From positions 62,001-126,000 of the IMG/VR virus record IMGVR_UViG_3300037067_011375: a DNA stretch of 64,000 nt. One strand, 5' to 3'. Both the position numbers and the translations under genes were made by a program. Source of the stretch: an uncultured virus (IMG/VR IMGVR_UViG_3300037067_011375) (lineage: Duplodnaviria; Heunggongvirae; Uroviricota; Caudoviricetes). Below are positions 29,703 through 63,889 of this stretch, one piece after another (the first letter of the stretch is position 1; every line of letters starts with the position of its first letter). Under the pieces are notes generated by a model that worked only from the letters and a program-made list of their open reading frames with translations, did no database searches and had not been told where the DNA came from.

Positions 29703-29891
29703 ATGGCACTGCAGGTTTCACCGGAACAGCCCAGAACTGTCTGCAGTTGGTGTCGGTGTGTCCTGGACGGTCGCGGGCCTGTTCAACCCGAAGAGGTCGC
29801 AACCCTAAGCCACGGGATTTGCCGCCCGTGCGAAGCAAGATACTTCGGCAATCTACCACAGGAGTCACAAAATGAATCTACAGGATTTTAA
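29703..29891 (+). CDS. Small zinc-binding protein
   Basis: 'VCSWC...SHGICRPC'. Confidence 0.65.
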   Translation: MALQVSPEQPRTVCSWCRCVLDGRGPVQPEEVATLSHGICRPCEARYFGNLPQESQNESTGF

Positions 29892-30972
29892 CCGTGATCT
29901 TGGCAAGTTGACCGACCGCACCGCTGACCCCACCGAGGCGGTCCAGCGGGTGCTCGCGTCATTCGCGGCCGACGCGATGGGCCGCAACCCAGACGTCGAC
30001 GACGACGGCGAGACCGCAATGGATTTTGTCAGTTTCATGATGGTGTTGCTTCAGAGCGACGCCGTCATCAATCTCCCGACGTACCGGCGCCGGCGGGTCG
30101 CGACCGTCAATCCCGACGAGATCGTGGTGTCGGCGGCCAACCGGCACGGCCGCGTCCTGGGGCTTACGTCAAACCAGCACGTCTGGTCCATGGGGGTCAA
30201 CATCAACGACGCCAACGTCATGACCGCCACGACCGTTGGGGCATCCAGGACTTTCCTGTTCCAGGACATCACGGGTGAGTGGTACGACGAGTGGAGCGGA
30301 ATCGACTTCCGGACCGACAACTTCCCCGAGAAGCTCCGGACCGCGTTCGCGGCCAGTGAGATCAAGTTCACCGAGATGGTGTCGAGAAACCGCGGGGCTG
30401 GTGTCTACGGGCGCCGTTTCATCCTGGCCAAGGCGGCGATCACCCGGCTGGCTGACCGCGACAAATTCCTCAAGGCCGAGGCCAAGCGGTTGGCTCCCCC
30501 GGTGGACCCCATGGCACCCAAGGCTCCGTGGTCAGGGTCCAAGAAGGTCGGGACTGGCGAGAAGGTCAAGGTCTGGGCGTTCAACTGCTTCGTGGATACC
30601 TCGCTGACCGGCGACTACACCCCGATGGGGTCGCTCGAGGAGGTCCAGCGGGAACGCCACCGACTCCGCCAGAACATCCAGACCCTCCGGTTTTGCACCA
30701 GGGCCACGGAGTTCGGGTTCTGGAAGGACCACATCGGTACCACCATCGGGCACGAGGACGCTGATCTGCTCGGTTGGCTCAAGGGCGGCGACCCCACTGC
30801 CCTGAAGGTACCGGCTTGGTGTCCGGGCGAGTGGACCACGGGGGTCAAGGCCCCTGGGGCCAAAACATTCTTCGCAGCTCTGCGGCGTCCCGATGCCCCC
30901 ACGGTTCGGTGGCGGGCTTGGCGCCAGACCGAGGAAGTCGCAGCCCCCATGGACGACAGCACCGGCGAGTAA
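29872..30972 (+). CDS. Hypothetical early protein
   Basis: AGGAG RBS; strong GC3 codon bias. Confidence 0.7.
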   Translation: MNLQDFNRDLGKLTDRTADPTEAVQRVLASFAADAMGRNPDVDDDGETAMDFVSFMMVLLQSDAVINLPTYRRRRVATVNPDEIVVSAANRHGRVLGLTSNQHVWSMGVNINDANVMTATTVGASRTFLFQDITGEWYDEWSGIDFRTDNFPEKLRTAFAASEIKFTEMVSRNRGAGVYGRRFILAKAAITRLADRDKFLKAEAKRLAPPVDPMAPKAPWSGSKKVGTGEKVKVWAFNCFVDTSLTGDYTPMGSLEEVQRERHRLRQNIQTLRFCTRATEFGFWKDHIGTTIGHEDADLLGWLKGGDPTALKVPAWCPGEWTTGVKAPGAKTFFAALRRPDAPTVRWRAWRQTEEVAAPMDDSTGE

Positions 30973-56613: not shown

Positions 56614-56890
56614 ATCCATATGACAACCCAACGATTACTTTTCGTCGATAAGTGGGTTTCTTTTCCCGGTGGCTGTGTGGTGATGCCCTGGCCGAGAAGC
56701 CTTCAACTGTATGGACTTTACTGGCCTACACCGATCTCAGTCATCCGCCTACGCTACCGTGCCGATTAACCAGGGCCGACGGTGCGATGTATGAAGAAGA
56801 AGCGTACGACTGGTGTTGGACAGACGGCAAGTTCCGCTACTTCAGTCATGCTGGCAACGGGCCCGTGTGGCTCCTGCTCGAGTACAAGTG

Positions 56891-57859: not shown

Positions 57860-60838
57860 ATGCCAACTTCCCGTCTAACTCCCGGTCGTCCCGCCATCTG
57901 CCAAGCCTGCCCGCTCCAAGAATCAGCGGGGCTCACTCGTCACTGCTGTTCCGTCCAGCAGGGTCGTGACACCTCCCTGATGATCATCGGGGACCACCCG
58001 GTTGACCTACAGCCCCATGGGGCTGAGCCCTTCACTGACCCAGCGGGTCAGATGCTCCAGCGGGTCATGGGGCAGGTGACCCAAGGGAACAGTGGCGTCG
58101 CCTACGGGTACTGTGTGCGGTGCCGCCCGATGGACCGGGGCAAGCCTGACAAAACCCGCCCGGCCACCGCCACGGAGGCCAACCACTGCCGGGTCAACGT
58201 CGCGAAAGACCTGGCCCTGCTGAAGCCCAAACAAGTGGTGTTGCTGGGCCTCGGGGCTGCAAAACTCCTGGCTCAACTGCCCGATGGTTCGGCCGTGTCG
58301 GCCAAGGTTCAGTTGGGCGACCTGCGGGGCCGCGACCTCCACTGCACCGCCCACGACGGCACCAAGATCCCCGTGATCGTCACGTACGACCCGGAGTTCA
58401 TCCAGCGGAACCCCACGGTCGCGGCGACGTGGCGCGACGATTTCCTGCGGGCCTGGCTTCGGGGGTCCGGTCGGCTCCCAGACGATTCCCGTGACGGCAA
58501 AGTCTACACCCTCGACACCATTGAGAAGGTTAGGAAGTTTGCCCGGCGGGTCGCGAAACTAAAGCGTGGCGATATTTTGGTCCTGGACTACGAGACCGAG
58601 GGACTCGGCCGCGTGGAAAACAAGATCCTGACCGCTGGTTTTGCATTTGACCCGGACCACGCCTATGTGATCCCGATGCAGCACCAGGAAGCCCCGTGGT
58701 CAGGGCCCGAATACCGAGAAATCGTGGGCTTGATCAAGCAGATCCTGACCAAGCCGGCTCCCTACTGGATCGGGGGCCACAACCTCAAGTTCGAGTTGCA
58801 GGTAACCCGTGGGCAACTGGGTTTTGAGATCGACCTACCCTGCTGCGACACCATGTTGAGGGCCCATGCACTCAATCCCGACTACGGTCGGGTGGATAAA
58901 AAGTCTCAGGGCCACGACGACGATGCTGTTGACCAGATTGTAGACACCACCGGGGACATTCAGGTCGGGGGTTTCGGGCTCAAGAGCCAGTCCAAGGAAT
59001 GCCTGAACTTTCACCACTATGAAGACGAAGATGTGGCCGCTACGGTCGGGCGCCGCAACGAAGCGAAGTTGGCGTTACTGCCGCTCGACAAGGTTATCCG
59101 GTACAACGGGATTGATGGCTTCGTGACCTTCCGGCTGAACCACTACCAAGACGTCATGGCCGAGGCCATGGGGTACCGAAAAAAGTTGACTCGGTTGTGC
59201 CGTGGCATGCACACCAAGGTCTTGGCCGTCCTGGTAGAAATGGAAACCAACGGGATCCGGGTGGACAAAGAATACCTCCGGATGTTGCTCCACGACGATT
59301 CCATCGTGCAGACCCGAATGCAGGAGATTTCCCAGGAGTTTTGTGCCCTGCCCTCGGTCCAGGAGGCCAATCGACGCCTCCTGGCCGACAGGTATGGTGG
59401 CCAGGCTGGCCTGTGGGGCCAAGGGGCTGGTGAATCCTGGGTGTTCTCGATGCGGCAAGCTCTGTCCAAGAAAATTTTGCTGATTGACGTCCTGGAGTTG
59501 GAGCCCCTAAAGCACACGGCCGCCGGGGCGGTGTCAATCGACAAAAAATTCCTGGAGAACTACGCCGGGGTCCCGGAAGTAGACCTTCTGGCCGAGTGGA
59601 CCGCACTCGCAACGATCAAGTCCAGGTATCTCGTCGGGACCAACAAGGTCATGCTGGCAGACCCGGACATGCGGGATGGGCGAGCCAGGGCGCAGTTCCG
59701 GCCAGCCGGCACCATCACGGGGCGGATTTCGGCCGCCGGGATCAACGTCCTGAACGTGCCGAAAAAGGCCGAGGACGGGTCTAAGAAGGCGTCGGCCTCA
59801 CTGATCAAGCGGATGTACATCTGCGATCCTGGTCATGTGATGGTCTGCGGTGACTACTCGCAAGCTGAGGTCCGGTGGCTCGCGGCCCTGACGCAAGACC
59901 CCGATATGCTCAAGGCGTTCGGGGCTGCGTGGGATATGCGGGCCTTGTGTCTCAAGGACCCATCCCCTGAAAATCTCAAGCGGCTGGACGCCGAGGGTGA
60001 CTTCCACAAGCAAACCGCCTCGATGGTGTTCGACGTCCCGATCTCCAAGGTTACGAAGGAGCAGCGAGGCCAGTCGAAAGGCGTGGTCTTTGGCCAAATT
60101 TATGGTCAAGGATTACCGGCACTTGCAGCGATCCTGAAGAAAACCAAGGCCCAGACCGAGGAGTTCATCACGAGGTTCTTCGCGCGCTTCCCCGTGGCCA
60201 AAGACGCCTTGGCCCAGATGGCCCAGGACGGGTTTGAAAATGGGTTTGCCGAGTCCCCGACGGGCCGGCGCAAACAATTCGTCACCAAGATGATCGCGGG
60301 GGACGCCCAGGCTCTACAGTATTGTTCTGGTAAACTACGGTCGCTCCGGGGCCGTGAGGAGCGGGTGGCCCGCAACATGCCGATCCAGGGGATTTCCTCC
60401 GACATGAACCTGACGGCCTGCTACCGGATCATCCAGTATTACCGACGACACAATCTTCCGTGGCGCCTGATCAACTCGGTCTACGACTCCATCATGCTGG
60501 AAGTACCGCGTCAAGATGCCGAGCACTGCGTCGAGGTGGTGCAGTCCATTATGGAACGGGAAGATTTGCTCGCGGGATTTGGGATTGACCCAGGACTCAG
60601 GTTCCTGGCGGAAATGTCCGTCGGGACCCACTGGGGCAACCAGGTGGACATCACGGCAGGCGAGCAGCAGTGGAAGGTGGGGTGCAGGTCCTGCAAAAAG
60701 TCCCGCGAGGAGAAAAAGAAGCCGACCAACCATCGGTGCGAATCATGTGGGTCCACCGACGTATACCTCGAGTTGATCAAGGGGCCACATGATTTGGCGT
60801 TTAAGTGGCTGGATCGCCAACTCAGGGGCAAGGCGTGA
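57860..60838 (+). CDS. Family A DNA polymerase with N-terminal UDG-like domain, 3'-5' exonuclease and C-terminal zinc ribbon
   Basis: Exo 'LDYETEG' and 'GHNLKFE'; motif A 'DYSQAEVR', motif B 'R..SKGVVFG.IYG', motif C 'VYDS'; N-terminal Cys pattern of family-4 UDG. Confidence 0.92.
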   Translation: MPTSRLTPGRPAICQACPLQESAGLTRHCCSVQQGRDTSLMIIGDHPVDLQPHGAEPFTDPAGQMLQRVMGQVTQGNSGVAYGYCVRCRPMDRGKPDKTRPATATEANHCRVNVAKDLALLKPKQVVLLGLGAAKLLAQLPDGSAVSAKVQLGDLRGRDLHCTAHDGTKIPVIVTYDPEFIQRNPTVAATWRDDFLRAWLRGSGRLPDDSRDGKVYTLDTIEKVRKFARRVAKLKRGDILVLDYETEGLGRVENKILTAGFAFDPDHAYVIPMQHQEAPWSGPEYREIVGLIKQILTKPAPYWIGGHNLKFELQVTRGQLGFEIDLPCCDTMLRAHALNPDYGRVDKKSQGHDDDAVDQIVDTTGDIQVGGFGLKSQSKECLNFHHYEDEDVAATVGRRNEAKLALLPLDKVIRYNGIDGFVTFRLNHYQDVMAEAMGYRKKLTRLCRGMHTKVLAVLVEMETNGIRVDKEYLRMLLHDDSIVQTRMQEISQEFCALPSVQEANRRLLADRYGGQAGLWGQGAGESWVFSMRQALSKKILLIDVLELEPLKHTAAGAVSIDKKFLENYAGVPEVDLLAEWTALATIKSRYLVGTNKVMLADPDMRDGRARAQFRPAGTITGRISAAGINVLNVPKKAEDGSKKASASLIKRMYICDPGHVMVCGDYSQAEVRWLAALTQDPDMLKAFGAAWDMRALCLKDPSPENLKRLDAEGDFHKQTASMVFDVPISKVTKEQRGQSKGVVFGQIYGQGLPALAAILKKTKAQTEEFITRFFARFPVAKDALAQMAQDGFENGFAESPTGRRKQFVTKMIAGDAQALQYCSGKLRSLRGREERVARNMPIQGISSDMNLTACYRIIQYYRRHNLPWRLINSVYDSIMLEVPRQDAEHCVEVVQSIMEREDLLAGFGIDPGLRFLAEMSVGTHWGNQVDITAGEQQWKVGCRSCKKSREEKKKPTNHRCESCGSTDVYLELIKGPHDLAFKWLDRQLRGKA

Positions 60839-61056
60839 TCGAGTTACCGGTCAAGGTAGTGGACTGTGCTGTCTGCCATGCCGTGGATCAACTTATCTTG
60901 ACCTTCGAGGCCACTGGGTTCGGAGCACTTTATCGTGTGGTGTGCCCAGGATGTGGCTACTCGGCCCCGCCGAACAAAACCGAAGAAAAAGCCGTGGCCC
61001 GGTGGAACTCGTGCCAGTCCAGCCGCGGTAGGGTAAAACGAAATAAAGAAAAATGA
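60835..61056 (+). CDS. Lar-like (restriction alleviation) zinc-ribbon protein
   Basis: CAVC...VVCPGCG...EEKAVARWN. Confidence 0.7.
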   Translation: MIELPVKVVDCAVCHAVDQLILTFEATGFGALYRVVCPGCGYSAPPNKTEEKAVARWNSCQSSRGRVKRNKEK

Positions 61057-61511
61057 CATGGTTCATCACACCGCAGTTAATGCAGCAGTACCGTCTGGCT
61101 TGCGAGAAATCGCCTTGTTTGCCGGAGCAGGTGGAGGAATCCTCGGCGGACATCTCCTCGGGTGGAAAACAGTCTGCGCCGTCGAAATCACGCCGTACGC
61201 CCGGGAAGTCTTGTTCGCCCGACAGGCCGACGGAACTCTTGAACCCTTCCCCGTCTGGGACGACATCCGTACTTTTGACGGACGCGCTTGGCGAGGCTAT
61301 TGTGACGTGGTTTCGGGAGGATTTCCTTGCCAGGATGTCAGCTCGGCCGGAAAAGGTGCCGGTATTGACGGCGAAAGATCAGGACTCTGGGGCGAGATGG
61401 CGCGGGTCATCGGTGAGGTGCAACCCCGATGGGTCTGGGTGGAAAATAGCCCATTGCTGGTTTCCAGAGGACTTGTCAGAGTCGTCCGTGACCTTACCAC
61501 GCTGGGTATAG
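61053..61511 (+). CDS. Overprinted N-terminal part of the methyltransferase beta subunit
   Basis: ATG overlaps the upstream stop; with one extra G it reads ...TLPRWGIVVRGDVWE... through to 62290. Confidence 0.55.
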   Translation: MTWFITPQLMQQYRLACEKSPCLPEQVEESSADISSGGKQSAPSKSRRTPGKSCSPDRPTELLNPSPSGTTSVLLTDALGEAIVTWFREDFLARMSARPEKVPVLTAKDQDSGARWRGSSVRCNPDGSGWKIAHCWFPEDLSESSVTLPRWV

Positions 61512-62290
61512 TTGTGCGTGGGGACGTGTGGGAGCCTGGCAAGTCAGTGCCCCGCATCGTCGAGATCGATTCTGGCTCATCGGAAATCGTGAGTGCCCAG
61601 AGTAATGTCAGGGTTCCTTGGCCAACCCCCATGGTCACGGATGCTAAAAACAAAGGTGGAAAAGGGCAACTACGCCGTAAGTATCCACCGCTCAATGCCG
61701 TCGTCGGGATTGAGCGGTCCAGCAAGGCTACCGAGGCGTTGGCCTGGCCAACGCCTCAGTCCCGAGACTACAAAGGGGCACCAGGAAAGGGCTGTGTTGA
61801 GCGTGGCGGACACCAGTCAAGTTTACCAATGAAGATTGGGCAAGTCACCGAGGCGTTGGCCTGGCCAACGCCTCGGTCCTGTACCGCCACGGCCGCCACC
61901 ATCACGGAGCAGGCACAACAATGTGCTGCTGACCGTTTCCCTAATCTGGAAACCGTGATGGTCCAGCGGGAACATGGGGCAGTCGGGGGTGCCTTGAATC
62001 CAGCATGGGTGGAGTGGCTCATGAACTGGCCCGTGGGTTGGACCAACCTGAAACCTATCCGGGGATTTAACCGCTGGCGTCGCAAAACCATGGAATCCTC
62101 CTGGTGGGCCCGAGATCCAGCCGACGAACCCGATACCAAGGTGCCGCGCATATCCGTGGGGAAACTGCACCGAGTTGACCGACTCAAGGCCATCGGGAAC
62201 GGTCAAGTGCCCCTCTGCTGTGCCTTGGCATTCCTGACGCTCCAGCGGGAGTTACTGACATTTTTGAAAAATCACCCTTCCGGTCGGTAA
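61058..62290 (+). CDS. C5 DNA cytosine methyltransferase; as sequenced, an alpha/beta chimera created by a 1-nt frameshift at ~61505
   Basis: Motif I 'LFAGAGG', IV 'GGFPCQD', VI 'VEN' and X 'LKAIGNG'; motif VIII 'APHRRDRFW' lies in the -1 frame after 61506. Confidence 0.85.
   Translation: MVHHTAVNAAVPSGLREIALFAGAGGGILGGHLLGWKTVCAVEITPYAREVLFARQADGTLEPFPVWDDIRTFDGRAWRGYCDVVSGGFPCQDVSSAGKGAGIDGERSGLWGEMARVIGEVQPRWVWVENSPLLVSRGLVRVVRDLTTLGIVVRGDVWEPGKSVPRIVEIDSGSSEIVSAQSNVRVPWPTPMVTDAKNKGGKGQLRRKYPPLNAVVGIERSSKATEALAWPTPQSRDYKGAPGKGCVERGGHQSSLPMKIGQVTEALAWPTPRSCTATAATITEQAQQCAADRFPNLETVMVQREHGAVGGALNPAWVEWLMNWPVGWTNLKPIRGFNRWRRKTMESSWWARDPADEPDTKVPRISVGKLHRVDRLKAIGNGQVPLCCALAFLTLQRELLTFLKNHPSGR
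61730..61875 (+). repeat. 28-bp direct repeat encoding 'TEALAWPTP'
   Basis: ACCGAGGCGTTGGCCTGGCCAACGCCTC at 61730 and 61848. Confidence 0.85.
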
Positions 62291-62320
62291 AATACCCCCA
62301 ACTTCCCTCAAAGGACTTCC

Positions 62321-63889
62321 ATGCCTGACCAAAAATGTACCCCTTTTGATGAACAATGGCTTCGGCTCCAACCCTGGCAGGTTTCATTCCTGCTGGCTCC
62401 CTGTCGGTGTAAAGCCCCGGTCAAGATGGTGTGGACCTTGCCCGGAGATTTCCCGGCCATTATCTGCACCACCTGTAACTACGGGATTGTCGGCGACACC
62501 GTCGAACAGGTGGTGCTGCGGCACAACCATGAGCGTGCCGTTGTCTCCGACGTCAAGTCCTCGCATTTCCCCACTGCTGACCTACAACTCCATTACGCCG
62601 TGGACCTCTTGGTCGCGCTGTTGCCCTGTCGAGAAGTCCAGGACGGCATCGATGCCCTGGTCCACCAGGGAAAACTCCCGGCCGACAAACCCTACTGTGT
62701 CCATCGGGCTGGCCCGGCCCATTGTGCTGGGTTGGAAAAAGACTTCGCTGAGTTGAGCGGCACCCTGGCCAACCTGGTCTTGAAGGATGCCAAAGCCGGT
62801 AGCATTCTGAAATCCGGCCAGACCGTGGAGCAGGCCAAAGCACTGGACGACGCAAGTCATAAATACTGGTCTGAGATCAACGAACGGGCCAAAAAGAACG
62901 TTCAAGAGCATCCCGACACCGTAGACTTGGATAATGCGCGGGGGAAAAAAGCCGCCCAAGCCAAACTGGCCAAGATGTCCCGTGAACAGATCTTGGTCGG
63001 GATGTCGCTCAAGGATTTTTATTCCACTGAATGTGGTGCAATCCCGAAAGTCAGCGAGGCCGAATGGAGAGTCCTCATCCAGGACCGTTTGAAGCAACTG
63101 GACGAGCTGGACCGCCGCGTTGCCGAGAAAAAGGCCAAGATGGCCACACCGTCGGGCCTCAAGACCGCCACGGTGAAAAAGCCGACCAAGACGACGGTCA
63201 AGAAGGGCGTGGTGCCGGCACCACCGGCCCGTAAATCCATCCAGGCCAGGGTGCCGTGCATCGCCGACGAGAACGAGAAAATCCAGGCCATGCACCTGCC
63301 GCCCAAGGGGTCGATAATCTTGGTGCTCGGTAGCGACGAGGCAGTTGCCGCCCAGCAGGCTGCCCAGAAGACCAAGGTTCTTGCCGAGCAAGACAAGGCC
63401 AAGGAGCAGGACGACCATGATCCCAAGGCTACCGAGGCACTCCAGACCAAGCTCCGGTCAATCGCGAAGGTTGCACTGCAGCGAAGCGGTAACATCCTGG
63501 TCAAGTCCCAGACCCAAGTGATCCGGGTGCTGTATCGTGAACAGGGTAACCTGTACGAAATCTCAAGCATCCTGGGGAATCCCCACGGATTCGTGGTGCA
63601 GCGGGTCGTGTATGTGGCGGGGGTTTCAAATGTCCCCACTAAACTGCCCGGCCAAGACATGGAAGCGGTCCTGGGGATCGCGACCCCCGGGCCCAACAAC
63701 GAGATGAACAACACCGTCTGGTATGACCGGATTGACCTACGGCCCCGCGACGGTACCGTCGCGGCAGGACCGTCGCTGCATCTTTGCTGTCACAATGTTG
63801 AAGCCCAGGTTTCCGCTGGCCCCACGTTAGCCTCTATCGTTGACACCACCAAGCCGGCTGAGCCGGAGAAAGACCAGTCCAATGCGTAG
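62321..63889 (+). CDS. Hypothetical protein (N-terminal Cys cluster, Lys/Ala-rich middle)
   Basis: AAGGA RBS; 522-aa ORF. Confidence 0.65.
   Translation: MPDQKCTPFDEQWLRLQPWQVSFLLAPCRCKAPVKMVWTLPGDFPAIICTTCNYGIVGDTVEQVVLRHNHERAVVSDVKSSHFPTADLQLHYAVDLLVALLPCREVQDGIDALVHQGKLPADKPYCVHRAGPAHCAGLEKDFAELSGTLANLVLKDAKAGSILKSGQTVEQAKALDDASHKYWSEINERAKKNVQEHPDTVDLDNARGKKAAQAKLAKMSREQILVGMSLKDFYSTECGAIPKVSEAEWRVLIQDRLKQLDELDRRVAEKKAKMATPSGLKTATVKKPTKTTVKKGVVPAPPARKSIQARVPCIADENEKIQAMHLPPKGSIILVLGSDEAVAAQQAAQKTKVLAEQDKAKEQDDHDPKATEALQTKLRSIAKVALQRSGNILVKSQTQVIRVLYREQGNLYEISSILGNPHGFVVQRVVYVAGVSNVPTKLPGQDMEAVLGIATPGPNNEMNNTVWYDRIDLRPRDGTVAAGPSLHLCCHNVEAQVSAGPTLASIVDTTKPAEPEKDQSNA

What the first reader, a model, noticed from the sequence alone, without database searches (positions are those of the whole stretch)
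61053..62290. Overprinted two-subunit C5 methyltransferase with both frames swapped by one missing G
Seen: two ORFs start 5 nt apart and overlap for about 450 nt. Adding one G to GGG at 61504-06 repairs both at once. Alpha (from 61058) continues LGYSCAWGRVGAWQVSAPHRRDRFWLIG...* (stop 61603-05), restoring motif VIII. Beta (from 61053) continues LPRWGIVVRGDVWE...WPTP...LKAIGNG to 62290. Known: M.EcoHK31I is a heterodimer whose beta chain is encoded in an alternative frame of alpha. Inference: the 410-aa ORF is a chimera lacking motif VIII. The cause could be a sequencing error, an inactivating mutation, or a slippage switch that controls both subunits.
Basis: partly seen in the sequence, partly recalled or inferred. 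Interest (0 to 1): 0.7.

Follow-up and report, generated by a model that had tools for sequence, protein, structure and literature searches.

The report
Frameshifted two-frame phage cytosine methylase
A large phage writes the two halves of its DNA cytosine methylase in two overlapping reading frames of one stretch of DNA, and this copy has lost one G that a nearly identical phage still has, which scrambles both halves at once.

Summary
A virus record 99.987% identical over all 132,407 bases has GGGG where the window has GGG at 61504-61506.

With G4 the locus gives two chains:
- Alpha, 182 aa, carries motifs I, IV, VI and VIII.
- Beta, 412 aa, is read in the +1 frame from an ATG 5 nt upstream of alpha's. 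It carries three WPTP modules and motifs IX and X.

With G3 the 410-aa ORF is a chimera without motif VIII, beta's start frame stops after 152 codons, and motif VIII is left without a start.

G4 is the family state. Thirty of 38 related viral loci keep the same +1 two-frame layout, and 12 of 15 have G4 at this site. G3 is probably a real allele. Contigs assembled by Logan from two runs in different studies show G3, and one run shows G4.

The layout resembles M.AquI in how the motifs are divided and M.EcoHK31I in its overprinting. Nothing supports a reversible switch, and nothing excludes it. Earlier notes of this scan describe the same two-frame family on other DNA. What this window adds is the natural G3/G4 allele pair.

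The parts
60805..61056 (+). Upstream 83-aa zinc-finger ORF. Its TGA stop (61054-61056) overlaps beta's ATG as ATGA.
   Evidence: One search gives the ORF. One search gives only a weak, sub-threshold Pfam Lar_restr_allev match (E 0.0074, 17 bits against a cut-off of 28.6). One search shows the stop overlapping the start.
61053..61055 (+). Start codon of beta, the first ATG of the twin start ATGACATGG.
   Evidence: P0003 and P0009 start here. The same twin start, ATG[AT]CATGG, occurs in 8 loci. Over the first 12 codons the beta reading is more conserved than the alpha-frame reading (0.59 against 0.31).
61058..61060 (+). First in-frame ATG of alpha. Homology to other alpha chains begins at TTG 61100, a possible alternative start.
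   Evidence: Which codon alpha actually uses was not determined.
61053..61511 (+). Window allele: beta's overprinted N-part, cut off after 152 codons (..LPRWV*).
   Evidence: Compare P0003 (..LPRWGIVVRGDVWE..).
61058..62290 (+). Window allele: 410-aa chimera, made of alpha aa 1-150 (motifs I, IV, VI) joined to beta's C-part (WPTP modules, IX, X). It has no motif VIII.
   Evidence: It is the only one of the 120 best database hits with I, IV, VI, IX and X but no VIII.
61504..61506 (+). G run: G3 here, G4 in the near-identical phage. It encodes alpha Leu-Gly150 (CTG GGG) and beta Trp-Gly (TGG GGT).
   Evidence: G4 in 12 of 15 distinct split loci. In one search, alpha Gly150 is GGG in 15 of 15.
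61507..61605 (+). Orphaned tail of alpha with motif VIII (PHRRDR at 61552-61569) and stop TAA at 61603-61605. In the window it is joined to no start codon.
   Evidence: In one search PHRRDR aligns with PQKRER, residues 160-165 of M.HhaI.
61118..61453 (+). Alpha motifs I (FAGAGGG, 61118-61138), IV (GFPCQD, 61319-61336) and VI (ENSP, 61442-61453). The same bases encode beta aa 22-134 in the +1 frame.
61619..61873 (+). Three WPTP modules of beta's variable (target-recognition-like) region, at 61619-61630, 61745-61756 and 61862-61873.
61994..62212 (+). Beta motif IX (LNPAWVEWLMNWPVGWT, 61994-62044) and motif X (LKAIGNGQVP, 62183-62212).
61733..61874 (.). Two identical 12+1+12 palindromes (61733-61757 and 61850-61874). 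The middle base of the second (61862) is T here and A in the relative, which changes Trp to Arg in the third WPTP.

Best explanation
This locus is a phage DNA cytosine-5 methyltransferase built from two chains. Both are read from the same DNA in two frames, from start codons 5 nt apart.

In the intact state (G4, seen in the near-identical phage):
- Alpha (182 aa) carries the cofactor-binding and catalytic motifs I, IV, VI and VIII.
- Beta (412 aa, +1 frame) has a 150-aa N-part overprinted on alpha, then three WPTP modules and motifs IX and X.
- The two chains are inferred to assemble into one enzyme, as in M.AquI and M.EcoHK31I. That enzyme would methylate phage DNA.

The window carries a one-base deletion in a G4 run that the dual coding itself keeps in place (alpha Leu-Gly, beta Trp-Gly). 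The deletion has three effects:
- It fuses alpha's first 150 residues to beta's C-part.
- It orphans motif VIII.
- It truncates the frame that starts at beta's ATG.

This allele is therefore most likely a null.

Shown here: the two alleles, the frames, the motifs, and the family-wide layout. Inferred: that the two chains bind, that the G4 form is active, and that the G3 form is inactive.
For: 1. The natural G4 allele.
- L004/G001 differs from the whole 132,407-base record by 11 mismatches and 5 gap openings. One of the gaps is G3 against G4 at window 61503-61506.
- The protein database holds beta exactly as predicted: P0003, 412 aa.

2. Motif VIII lies in alpha's G4 frame.
- PF00145 rises from 75 bits (aa 17-137) to 102 bits (aa 17-179, profile 3-163).
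- Alpha aligns to M.HhaI residues 10-170, with PHRRDR on PQKRER.
- Alpha is colinear with single-chain homologues.

3. The layout is that of the family.
- In 30 of 38 viral loci the N-half and C-half lie in frames f and f+1. Alpha lies inside the beta ORF, and the overlap from beta's ATG to alpha's stop is 449-1445 nt (554 in L004).
- Beta's ATG lies at +4 from alpha's start in 13 loci and at -23 to -47 in 11 loci.
- Twenty-three of 25 distinct split loci have no +1 stop over alpha codons 2-160. The mean expected under synonymous-codon permutation is 2.3. Fisher's combined P is 7e-13, but the loci are not independent.

4. Beta's frame is under its own selection.
- Some fourfold-degenerate alpha sites are fixed: Ala54 GCC in 15 of 15, Val128 GTG in 13 of 13, Gly150 GGG in 15 of 15. 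These give the conserved beta residues Pro56-Asp57, Trp130 and Gly152.
- In 8 loci with the twin start ATG[AT]CATGG, the first 12 codons are 0.59 identical in beta's frame against 0.31 in alpha's. The best-kept base is beta's codon position 2, which is alpha's wobble position.

5. G3 is seen beyond the record itself. Logan's contigs give G3 for X1 (depth 8, possibly the source sample) and for X3 (a different study, depth 2.5). They give G4 for X2 (depth 17).

6. A cultured phage, PP083311.1, has the same twin-start pair. Only the beta frame is annotated there, as a hypothetical protein.
Against: - For this phage alone, the open +1 frame over alpha is not unusual (P 0.24).
- Three of 4 single-frame controls also have no +1 stop there.
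- A crude global test found no extra constraint on alpha's fourfold sites in the overlap. Median third-position identity was 0.53 in the overlap against 0.65 in non-overlapping beta. The overlap was higher in only 15 of 73 pairs.
- Only assembled contigs could be laid, not raw reads. X1 may be the window's own source, and X3 is shallow.
- The window also has the shorter run at the only other homopolymer difference (C3 against C4 at 56685). That would also fit a slight under-calling of runs in this assembly.
- No activity, binding or methylation data exist for either allele.
Confidence: 0.72

Rival explanations
1. The missing G is an assembly or sequencing error. On this reading the phage in the window's sample really has G4 and an intact two-chain enzyme.
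For: The difference lies in a homopolymer. The only other single-base indel between the two records (window 56685, C3 against C4) is also one base shorter in the window, and there the longer allele gives the longer ORF with an ATG start.
Against: Logan's separate contig of run X1 (depth 8) has G3. So does a contig of X3, a run from another study and year. Runs of 3-4 bases are not error-prone on short-read platforms; this point is general knowledge, and the platform of these runs is not on record.
Confidence: 0.1
2. The G run is a contingency switch. It would slip reversibly between G4 (enzyme on) and G3 (enzyme off) within phage populations, for example to cope with hosts that restrict unmethylated DNA and hosts that restrict methylated DNA.
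For: Both lengths exist in phages that are otherwise 99.987% identical. Two of the 8 difference events between them fall inside this 1,238-nt gene (Poisson P 0.0027). The G4 run is kept at this site in 12 of 15 split relatives. G3 occurs with both A and T at 61862.
Against: Known phase-variable tracts are much longer than 3-4 bases (recalled, not tested here). No run showed both lengths, although contigs drop minor variants. The G4 run is fully explained by the two proteins' conserved residues. None of the other 119 best database hits is a chimera of this kind.
Confidence: 0.13
3. Beta is not really overprinted. On this reading it starts at an internal codon near alpha's end, as in M.AquI, and the long open +1 frame upstream is a by-product of alpha's sequence. 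The G deletion would then simply break alpha and fuse it to beta.
For: The open frame in this phage alone is not significant (P 0.24), and 3 of 4 single-frame controls are also open. The global synonymous-site test was negative. The first 42 residues of M.EcoHK31I beta are dispensable in vitro, and internal methionines can start it (passages of PMC2836561). The AlphaFold model of beta alone is of low confidence throughout (mean pLDDT 40.7).
Against: Twenty-three of 25 split loci are stop-free from an ATG within 4-47 nt of alpha's start. Alpha synonymous sites are fixed where they preserve beta residues as far upstream as beta Pro56. Beta's first 12 codons are conserved in beta's frame and not in alpha's. 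PHROG 1008 matches beta from residue 85.
Confidence: 0.15
4. The G3 allele is rescued at translation. A -1 slip of tRNA-Gly from GGU (61505-61507) back onto GGG (61504-61506) would yield alpha exactly as encoded by G4.
For: The sequence CTG GGT ATA allows such a re-pairing. This is inference only.
Against: There is no canonical slippery heptamer and no stimulatory structure was looked for. Beta would not be restored by the same slip. Nothing here was tested.
Confidence: 0.03

Closest known systems
M.AquI (two-polypeptide C5 methyltransferase, CYCGRG)
   Same: The motifs are divided the same way. [quoted passage not shown] The other chain has the rest of the variable region and IX-X (passages of PMC3404938). 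Here alpha has I-VIII and beta has the WPTP modules, IX and X.
   Different: Here beta's ORF starts 5 nt before alpha's and contains the whole of alpha in the +1 frame, a 554-nt overlap in the G4 allele. That the M.AquI genes overlap only slightly is recalled. The original paper (PMC208427) is not held. No sequence comparison with M.AquI was made.
M.EcoHK31I (alpha/beta C5 methyltransferase, YGGCCR)
   Same: Two chains are both needed, and one is encoded in another frame of the other's gene (passages of PMC2836561). Many relatives of this locus have exactly that division. Ninety-six of the 120 best hits are chains with I-VIII and X but no IX. Motif X lies in alpha's frame in L010, L025, L026, L031 and L035 and in phage PP083311.1.
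   Different: In this phage motif X lies in beta's frame, and alpha is nested in beta rather than beta in alpha. Lee et al. 1995 (PMC306636) is not held.
Monomeric C5 methyltransferases such as M.HhaI
   Same: Alpha (G4) aligns to M.HhaI residues 10-170 with motifs I-VIII, including the Gln161/Arg163/Arg165 segment, which here reads His-Arg-Arg-Asp-Arg. Single-chain relatives P0006, P0008 and P0010 carry all the motifs in one frame.
   Different: The gene here is split into two chains in two frames. The window allele lacks the motif VIII segment in any expressed frame.
Phase-variable methyltransferase genes with repeat tracts (phasevarions)
   Same: A change in the length of a homopolymer inside a methyltransferase gene decides whether the enzyme is made.
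   Different: The tract is only 3-4 bases. No variation within a sample was seen. One indel affects two proteins at once. The comparison rests on recall and no such system was examined here.

Membership tests
C-5 cytosine DNA methyltransferase (Pfam PF00145) | Motifs I (FxGxG), IV (PCQ) and VI (ENV/ENS) in the N-terminal half | tested here: met
   PF00145 E 9.2e-21 over aa 17-137.
C-5 cytosine DNA methyltransferase (Pfam PF00145) | Motif VIII (QxRxR-type) in frame with motifs I-VI | tested here: not met
   The window ORF leaves the family alignment at aa 150. The feature is met in the G4 allele of L004, with PF00145 matching aa 17-179 at 102 bits and PHRRDR aligned on M.HhaI 160-165.
C-5 cytosine DNA methyltransferase (Pfam PF00145) | Motifs IX and X in the C-terminal part | tested here: met
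   LNPAWVEWLMNWPVGWT and LKAIGNGQVP align with single-chain homologues. Naming these two segments as motifs IX and X rests on that alignment and on recall. Pfam itself did not match this part.
M.AquI-type two-chain enzyme | One chain has I-VIII and the other has IX-X | tested here: met
   This holds for the G4 allele, but not for the window allele, which is a chimera.
M.EcoHK31I-type two-chain enzyme | Alpha carries I-VIII and X, and beta carries only IX | tested here: not met
   Motif X is in beta's frame here. The feature is met in relatives.
M.EcoHK31I-type two-chain enzyme | One chain is encoded in another reading frame within the other's gene | tested here: met
   Alpha (61058 to 61605 in G4 numbering) lies wholly inside beta's ORF in the +1 frame. 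The nesting is the reverse of that described for M.EcoHK31I.
Two-chain C5 methyltransferases in general | Both chains are required for methylation and bind each other | not testable with these tools
No bench data exist.
Phase-variable (contingency) locus | Tract length varies within one population and reverts | tested here: inconclusive
   Of the three runs that cover the site, each shows one length (G3, G4, G3). These are contigs only, which drop minor variants.

The most novel reading that the evidence does not exclude
The G4 run is forced into the gene by the need to encode alpha Leu-Gly and beta Trp-Gly at once. It may act as a built-in, reversible on/off site for the whole two-chain methylase. 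One slipped base would disable both chains together, and phage populations would keep both states to survive hosts that restrict unmethylated DNA and hosts that restrict methylated DNA.
Probability: 0.13. Interest if true: 0.75.

Novelty: new variant of a known kind. Interest (0 to 1): 0.6.

Why it matters
Three points follow from this locus.

1. It is a natural experiment. Two phage genomes that are otherwise almost the same carry the intact form and the frameshifted form of one methylase. The target sequence and the need for each chain could be read directly from methylation-aware sequencing of the two populations.

2. It shows a cost of long same-strand gene overlaps. One indel damages two proteins at once, and it fell at a homopolymer that the double coding itself holds in place.

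3. The layout is alpha nested in beta, with twin start codons 4-5 nt apart, in 24 of the 30 split viral loci and in a cultured Pseudomonas phage. Gene callers report only one of the two chains. They often report the chain without any Pfam match, so such methylases are under-annotated. In the held library I found only M.AquI and M.EcoHK31I as natural two-chain C5 methylases (searches, judged from their listings, plus passages of two papers). Most subscription journals are not held.

Tried and rejected
- Complex prediction for alpha, beta's C-part and beta's N-part was not available. Nothing was folded.
- AlphaFold of beta alone with a 16-row alignment gave mean pLDDT 40.7, which is uninformative.
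- AlphaFold of the 410-aa chimera with a 55-row alignment gave mean pLDDT 56.6. It was confident for about aa 11-160 and low after that. The C-half alignment is shallow, so this says little about function.
- A global test of third-position identity at fourfold sites gave 0.53 in the overlap against 0.65 in non-overlapping beta. The overlap was higher in only 15 of 73 pairs. There is no global extra constraint, and the control region is small and motif-rich, so the test is inconclusive.
- A pattern scan for either allele of this site in metagenome contigs and viral contigs found only the G4 record. The window's own record is left out by design.
- No RNA holder was listed among the sequencing runs.
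- Run X4 does not cover the G run.
- DNA of the diverged relative P0009 could not be fetched. It is not in viral contigs, so its alpha frame is only inferred from its beta sequence. Its Pro-Trp-Gly requires TGGGG.
- The papers by Lee et al. 1995 and Karreman and de Waard 1990 are not held.
- The promoter and terminator scan of 60500-62600 showed nothing telling.
- I first took the conservation of beta's N-terminus MSWxxS as evidence of selection on beta, then rejected it for the ATGAATGAG class. There it is simply the +1 reading of alpha's conserved MNELALF. The argument was kept only for the ATG[AT]CATGG class, where alpha's frame is not conserved.
Full report
**What is in the window**

One search lists two same-strand ORFs: 61053-61511 (152 aa) and 61058-62290 (410 aa). 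Their ATGs are 5 nt apart in the string ATGACATGG. The upstream 83-aa zinc-finger ORF ends with a TGA that overlaps the first ATG.

Pfam PF00145 (C-5 cytosine methylase) matches the 410-aa ORF only at aa 17-137, profile positions 3-117 of 324. From 61507 the third frame reads YSCAWGRVGAWQVSAPHRRDRFWLIGNRECPE and stops at 61603-61605. Taken alone, those 32 residues match PF00145 positions 135-163. That is the expected place, but the match is weak (E 0.18).

Single-chain homologues P0006, P0008 and P0010 are colinear with this third frame. They read ..LGYDARWCVLGADDVGAPHRRKRIW.., then WPTP, then NPxWVEWLMGWPxGWT, then LKAIGNGQVP. The 410-aa ORF departs from them between aa 150 and about 188.

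**The predicted repair exists in nature**

The protein search returned P0003 (412 aa, no Pfam domain). Its DNA is L004 in virus record G001 (177,603 bases). That record has CTGGGGTAT where the window has CTGGGTAT.

The two records align over the window record's full 132,407 bases at 99.987% identity, with 11 mismatches and 5 gap openings. I group the differences into 8 events:
- four isolated substitutions outside this gene;
- a 36-nt cluster of changes at window 30507-30542;
- a C3/C4 indel at 56685;
- the G3/G4 indel;
- T/A at 61862.

Two of the 8 events fall in this 1,238-nt gene (Poisson P 0.0027).

With G4, alpha (L004:3006-3551, 182 aa) scores 102 bits on PF00145 over aa 17-179. It aligns to M.HhaI residues 10-170, with PHRRDR on PQKRER. 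That the two arginines of this segment are needed for catalysis is established knowledge of M.HhaI, recalled and not tested here.

**Which allele is the original**

A diverged relative, P0009 (533 aa), is 74% identical to P0003 over the overprinted part. It has the same beta layout, and its Pro-Trp-Gly requires TGGGG.

I ran tblastn with the single-chain P0008 against 38 viral loci found with P0003 and P0009:
- In 30 loci the N-half, including motif VIII, lies in frame f and the C-half in frame f+1.
- L024 is cut at its end but shows the same shift, and L030 is uninformative.
- Six loci are single-frame: L023, L034 and L038-L041.

At the homologous site, 12 of 15 distinct split loci have xTG GGG T (G4). 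The other 3 have G3 with another base in its place and the frames unchanged. None of 4 single-frame loci has G4. G4 is therefore the family state and the window's G3 is derived. Among the 120 best database hits, P0002 is the only protein with motifs I, IV, VI, IX and X but no VIII (regex misses checked).

**Is G3 real?**

Only Logan contigs could be laid, not raw reads.
- X1 (groundwater, 2022, possibly the window's source, depth 8) has G3.
- X2 (landfill, 2019, possibly G001's source, depth 17) has G4.
- X3 (groundwater, 2018, another study, depth 2.5) has a 182-nt contig across 61489-61670 without a gap, so it has G3.
- X4 does not cover the site.

G3 is thus seen in 2 of the 3 covering runs. 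One of them may not be independent of the window, and the other is shallow. A pattern scan of the metagenome and viral collections found no further copy.

One point favours the error reading. The only other homopolymer difference (56685) is also one base shorter in the window, and the longer allele gives the longer ORF with an ATG start. I put a real deletion at about 0.85 and an artefact at about 0.1.

**Is beta really overprinted on alpha?**

Evidence for:
- Beta's frame is open from an ATG at +4 (13 loci, ATGAATGAG) or at -23 to -47 (11 loci) relative to alpha's start. Alpha lies wholly inside it.
- Over alpha codons 2-160, 23 of 25 distinct split loci have no +1 stop. Permuting synonymous codons within each gene gives a mean of 2.3 stops. 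Fisher's combined P is 7e-13, but the loci are related and not independent.
- Three fourfold-degenerate alpha sites are fixed, against typical top-base shares of 0.4-0.7: Ala54 GCC in 15 of 15, Val128 GTG in 13 of 13, Gly150 GGG in 15 of 15. Each preserves a conserved beta residue: Pro56-Asp57, Trp130 and Gly152. The alternative codons at Ala54 and Gly150 would not create stops.
- In the 8 loci with the window's kind of twin start (ATG[AT]CATGG), beta's first 12 residues (M[TS]W[LFI][IF]S.AL) are 0.59 identical, against 0.31 for the alpha-frame reading. The best-kept base is beta's second codon position, which is alpha's wobble (0.79 against 0.57 and 0.54).
- PHROG 1008 ('DNA methyltransferase') matches beta from residue 85.

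Evidence against:
- For L004 alone the open frame has P 0.24.
- Three of 4 single-frame controls are also stop-free.
- A global comparison of fourfold-site identity found no excess in the overlap (0.53 against 0.65; the overlap was higher in 15 of 73 pairs).
- The beta model is of low confidence.

In the ATGAATGAG class, the conserved MSW... N-terminus is simply the +1 reading of alpha's MNELA. I do not count it as evidence.

**How it most likely works**

In the G4 state one message carries two starts within 5 nt, next to the upstream gene's stop. Ribosomes make alpha (motifs I-VIII) and beta (overprinted N-part, WPTP modules, IX, X). The two chains assemble into one methylase. Assembly is inferred from M.AquI and M.EcoHK31I, where both chains are needed (passages of PMC3404938 and PMC2836561).

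In the window's G3 state, alpha's start leads into beta's C-part, beta's start ends after 152 codons, and motif VIII has no start. The expected result is loss of methylation.

**Comparison with known systems**

The division of motifs is that of M.AquI. The use of a second frame of the same DNA is that of M.EcoHK31I. Many relatives match M.EcoHK31I fully:
- 96 of the 120 best hits are chains with I-VIII and X but no IX.
- Motif X lies in alpha's frame in L010, L025, L026, L031 and L035.
- In the cultured Pseudomonas phage PP083311.1, alpha (239 aa) and beta (242 aa) start 4 nt apart. Only beta is annotated, as a hypothetical protein.

This phage differs in having X in beta and alpha nested in beta.

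Searches of the held library turned up only M.AquI and M.EcoHK31I as natural two-chain C5 enzymes (judged from listings, plus passages of two papers). The two original papers are not held.

Earlier notes of this scan describe the same two-frame family in at least 16 other genomes. They also describe the palindromes of the near-identical relative. I checked the layout, the twin starts and the palindrome flip myself.

**Verdict**

The locus is a new variant of the known two-chain C5 methylases, caught as a natural pair of intact and frameshifted alleles. A reversible switch is possible but unsupported, at about 0.13.

Noticed in passing
window 61733-61757 and 61850-61874: There are two identical perfect 12+1+12 palindromes (GAGGCGTTGGCC T GGCCAACGCCTC) inside beta's WPTP modules. 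The middle base of the second (61862) is T here and A in the relative, in X2, in X3 and in X4. That change turns Trp into Arg in the third WPTP. Run X1 holds both forms as short alternative contigs. A T/A change at the centre is what inversion of the palindrome would give.
   Followed up: partly
window 30507-30542: The two 99.987% identical phages differ at about 10 positions within 36 nt here, by substitutions and small indels that keep the length. The site lies inside ORF 29872-30972 (366 aa, no Pfam match). It looks like a local hypervariable or gene-converted patch.
   Followed up: partly
window 56685: This is the second homopolymer difference, C3 here and C4 in the relative. It changes the 5' end of a small ORF: 79 aa from GTG at 56652 here, and 90 aa from an ATG in the relative.
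   Followed up: partly
window 57860-60838: The 992-aa family A DNA polymerase has an N-terminal uracil-DNA-glycosylase-superfamily domain (aa 37-189) and a weak zinc-ribbon-like C-terminus (HypA-like, E 0.0027).
   Followed up: no
window 60805-61056 and 62321-62520: The small ORF before the methylase and the N-terminus of the 522-aa ORF after it both carry CxxC...CxxC zinc-finger-like segments. The first has a weak Lar (restriction alleviation) match below Pfam's cut-off. The second has no family match.
   Followed up: no
L055 1138-1870 (PP083311.1, Pseudomonas phage VB_PaD_phPA-G): The GenBank annotation gives only the beta frame (1142-1870), as a hypothetical protein. The alpha chain with all the catalytic motifs (1138-1857) is not annotated.
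   Followed up: yes
L004-L035, start regions: Two conserved twin-start designs recur: ATGAATGAG (alpha ATG, then beta ATG 4 nt later) and ATG[AT]CATGG (beta ATG, then alpha-frame ATG 5 nt later). They often abut or overlap the stop codon of the upstream gene.
   Followed up: partly
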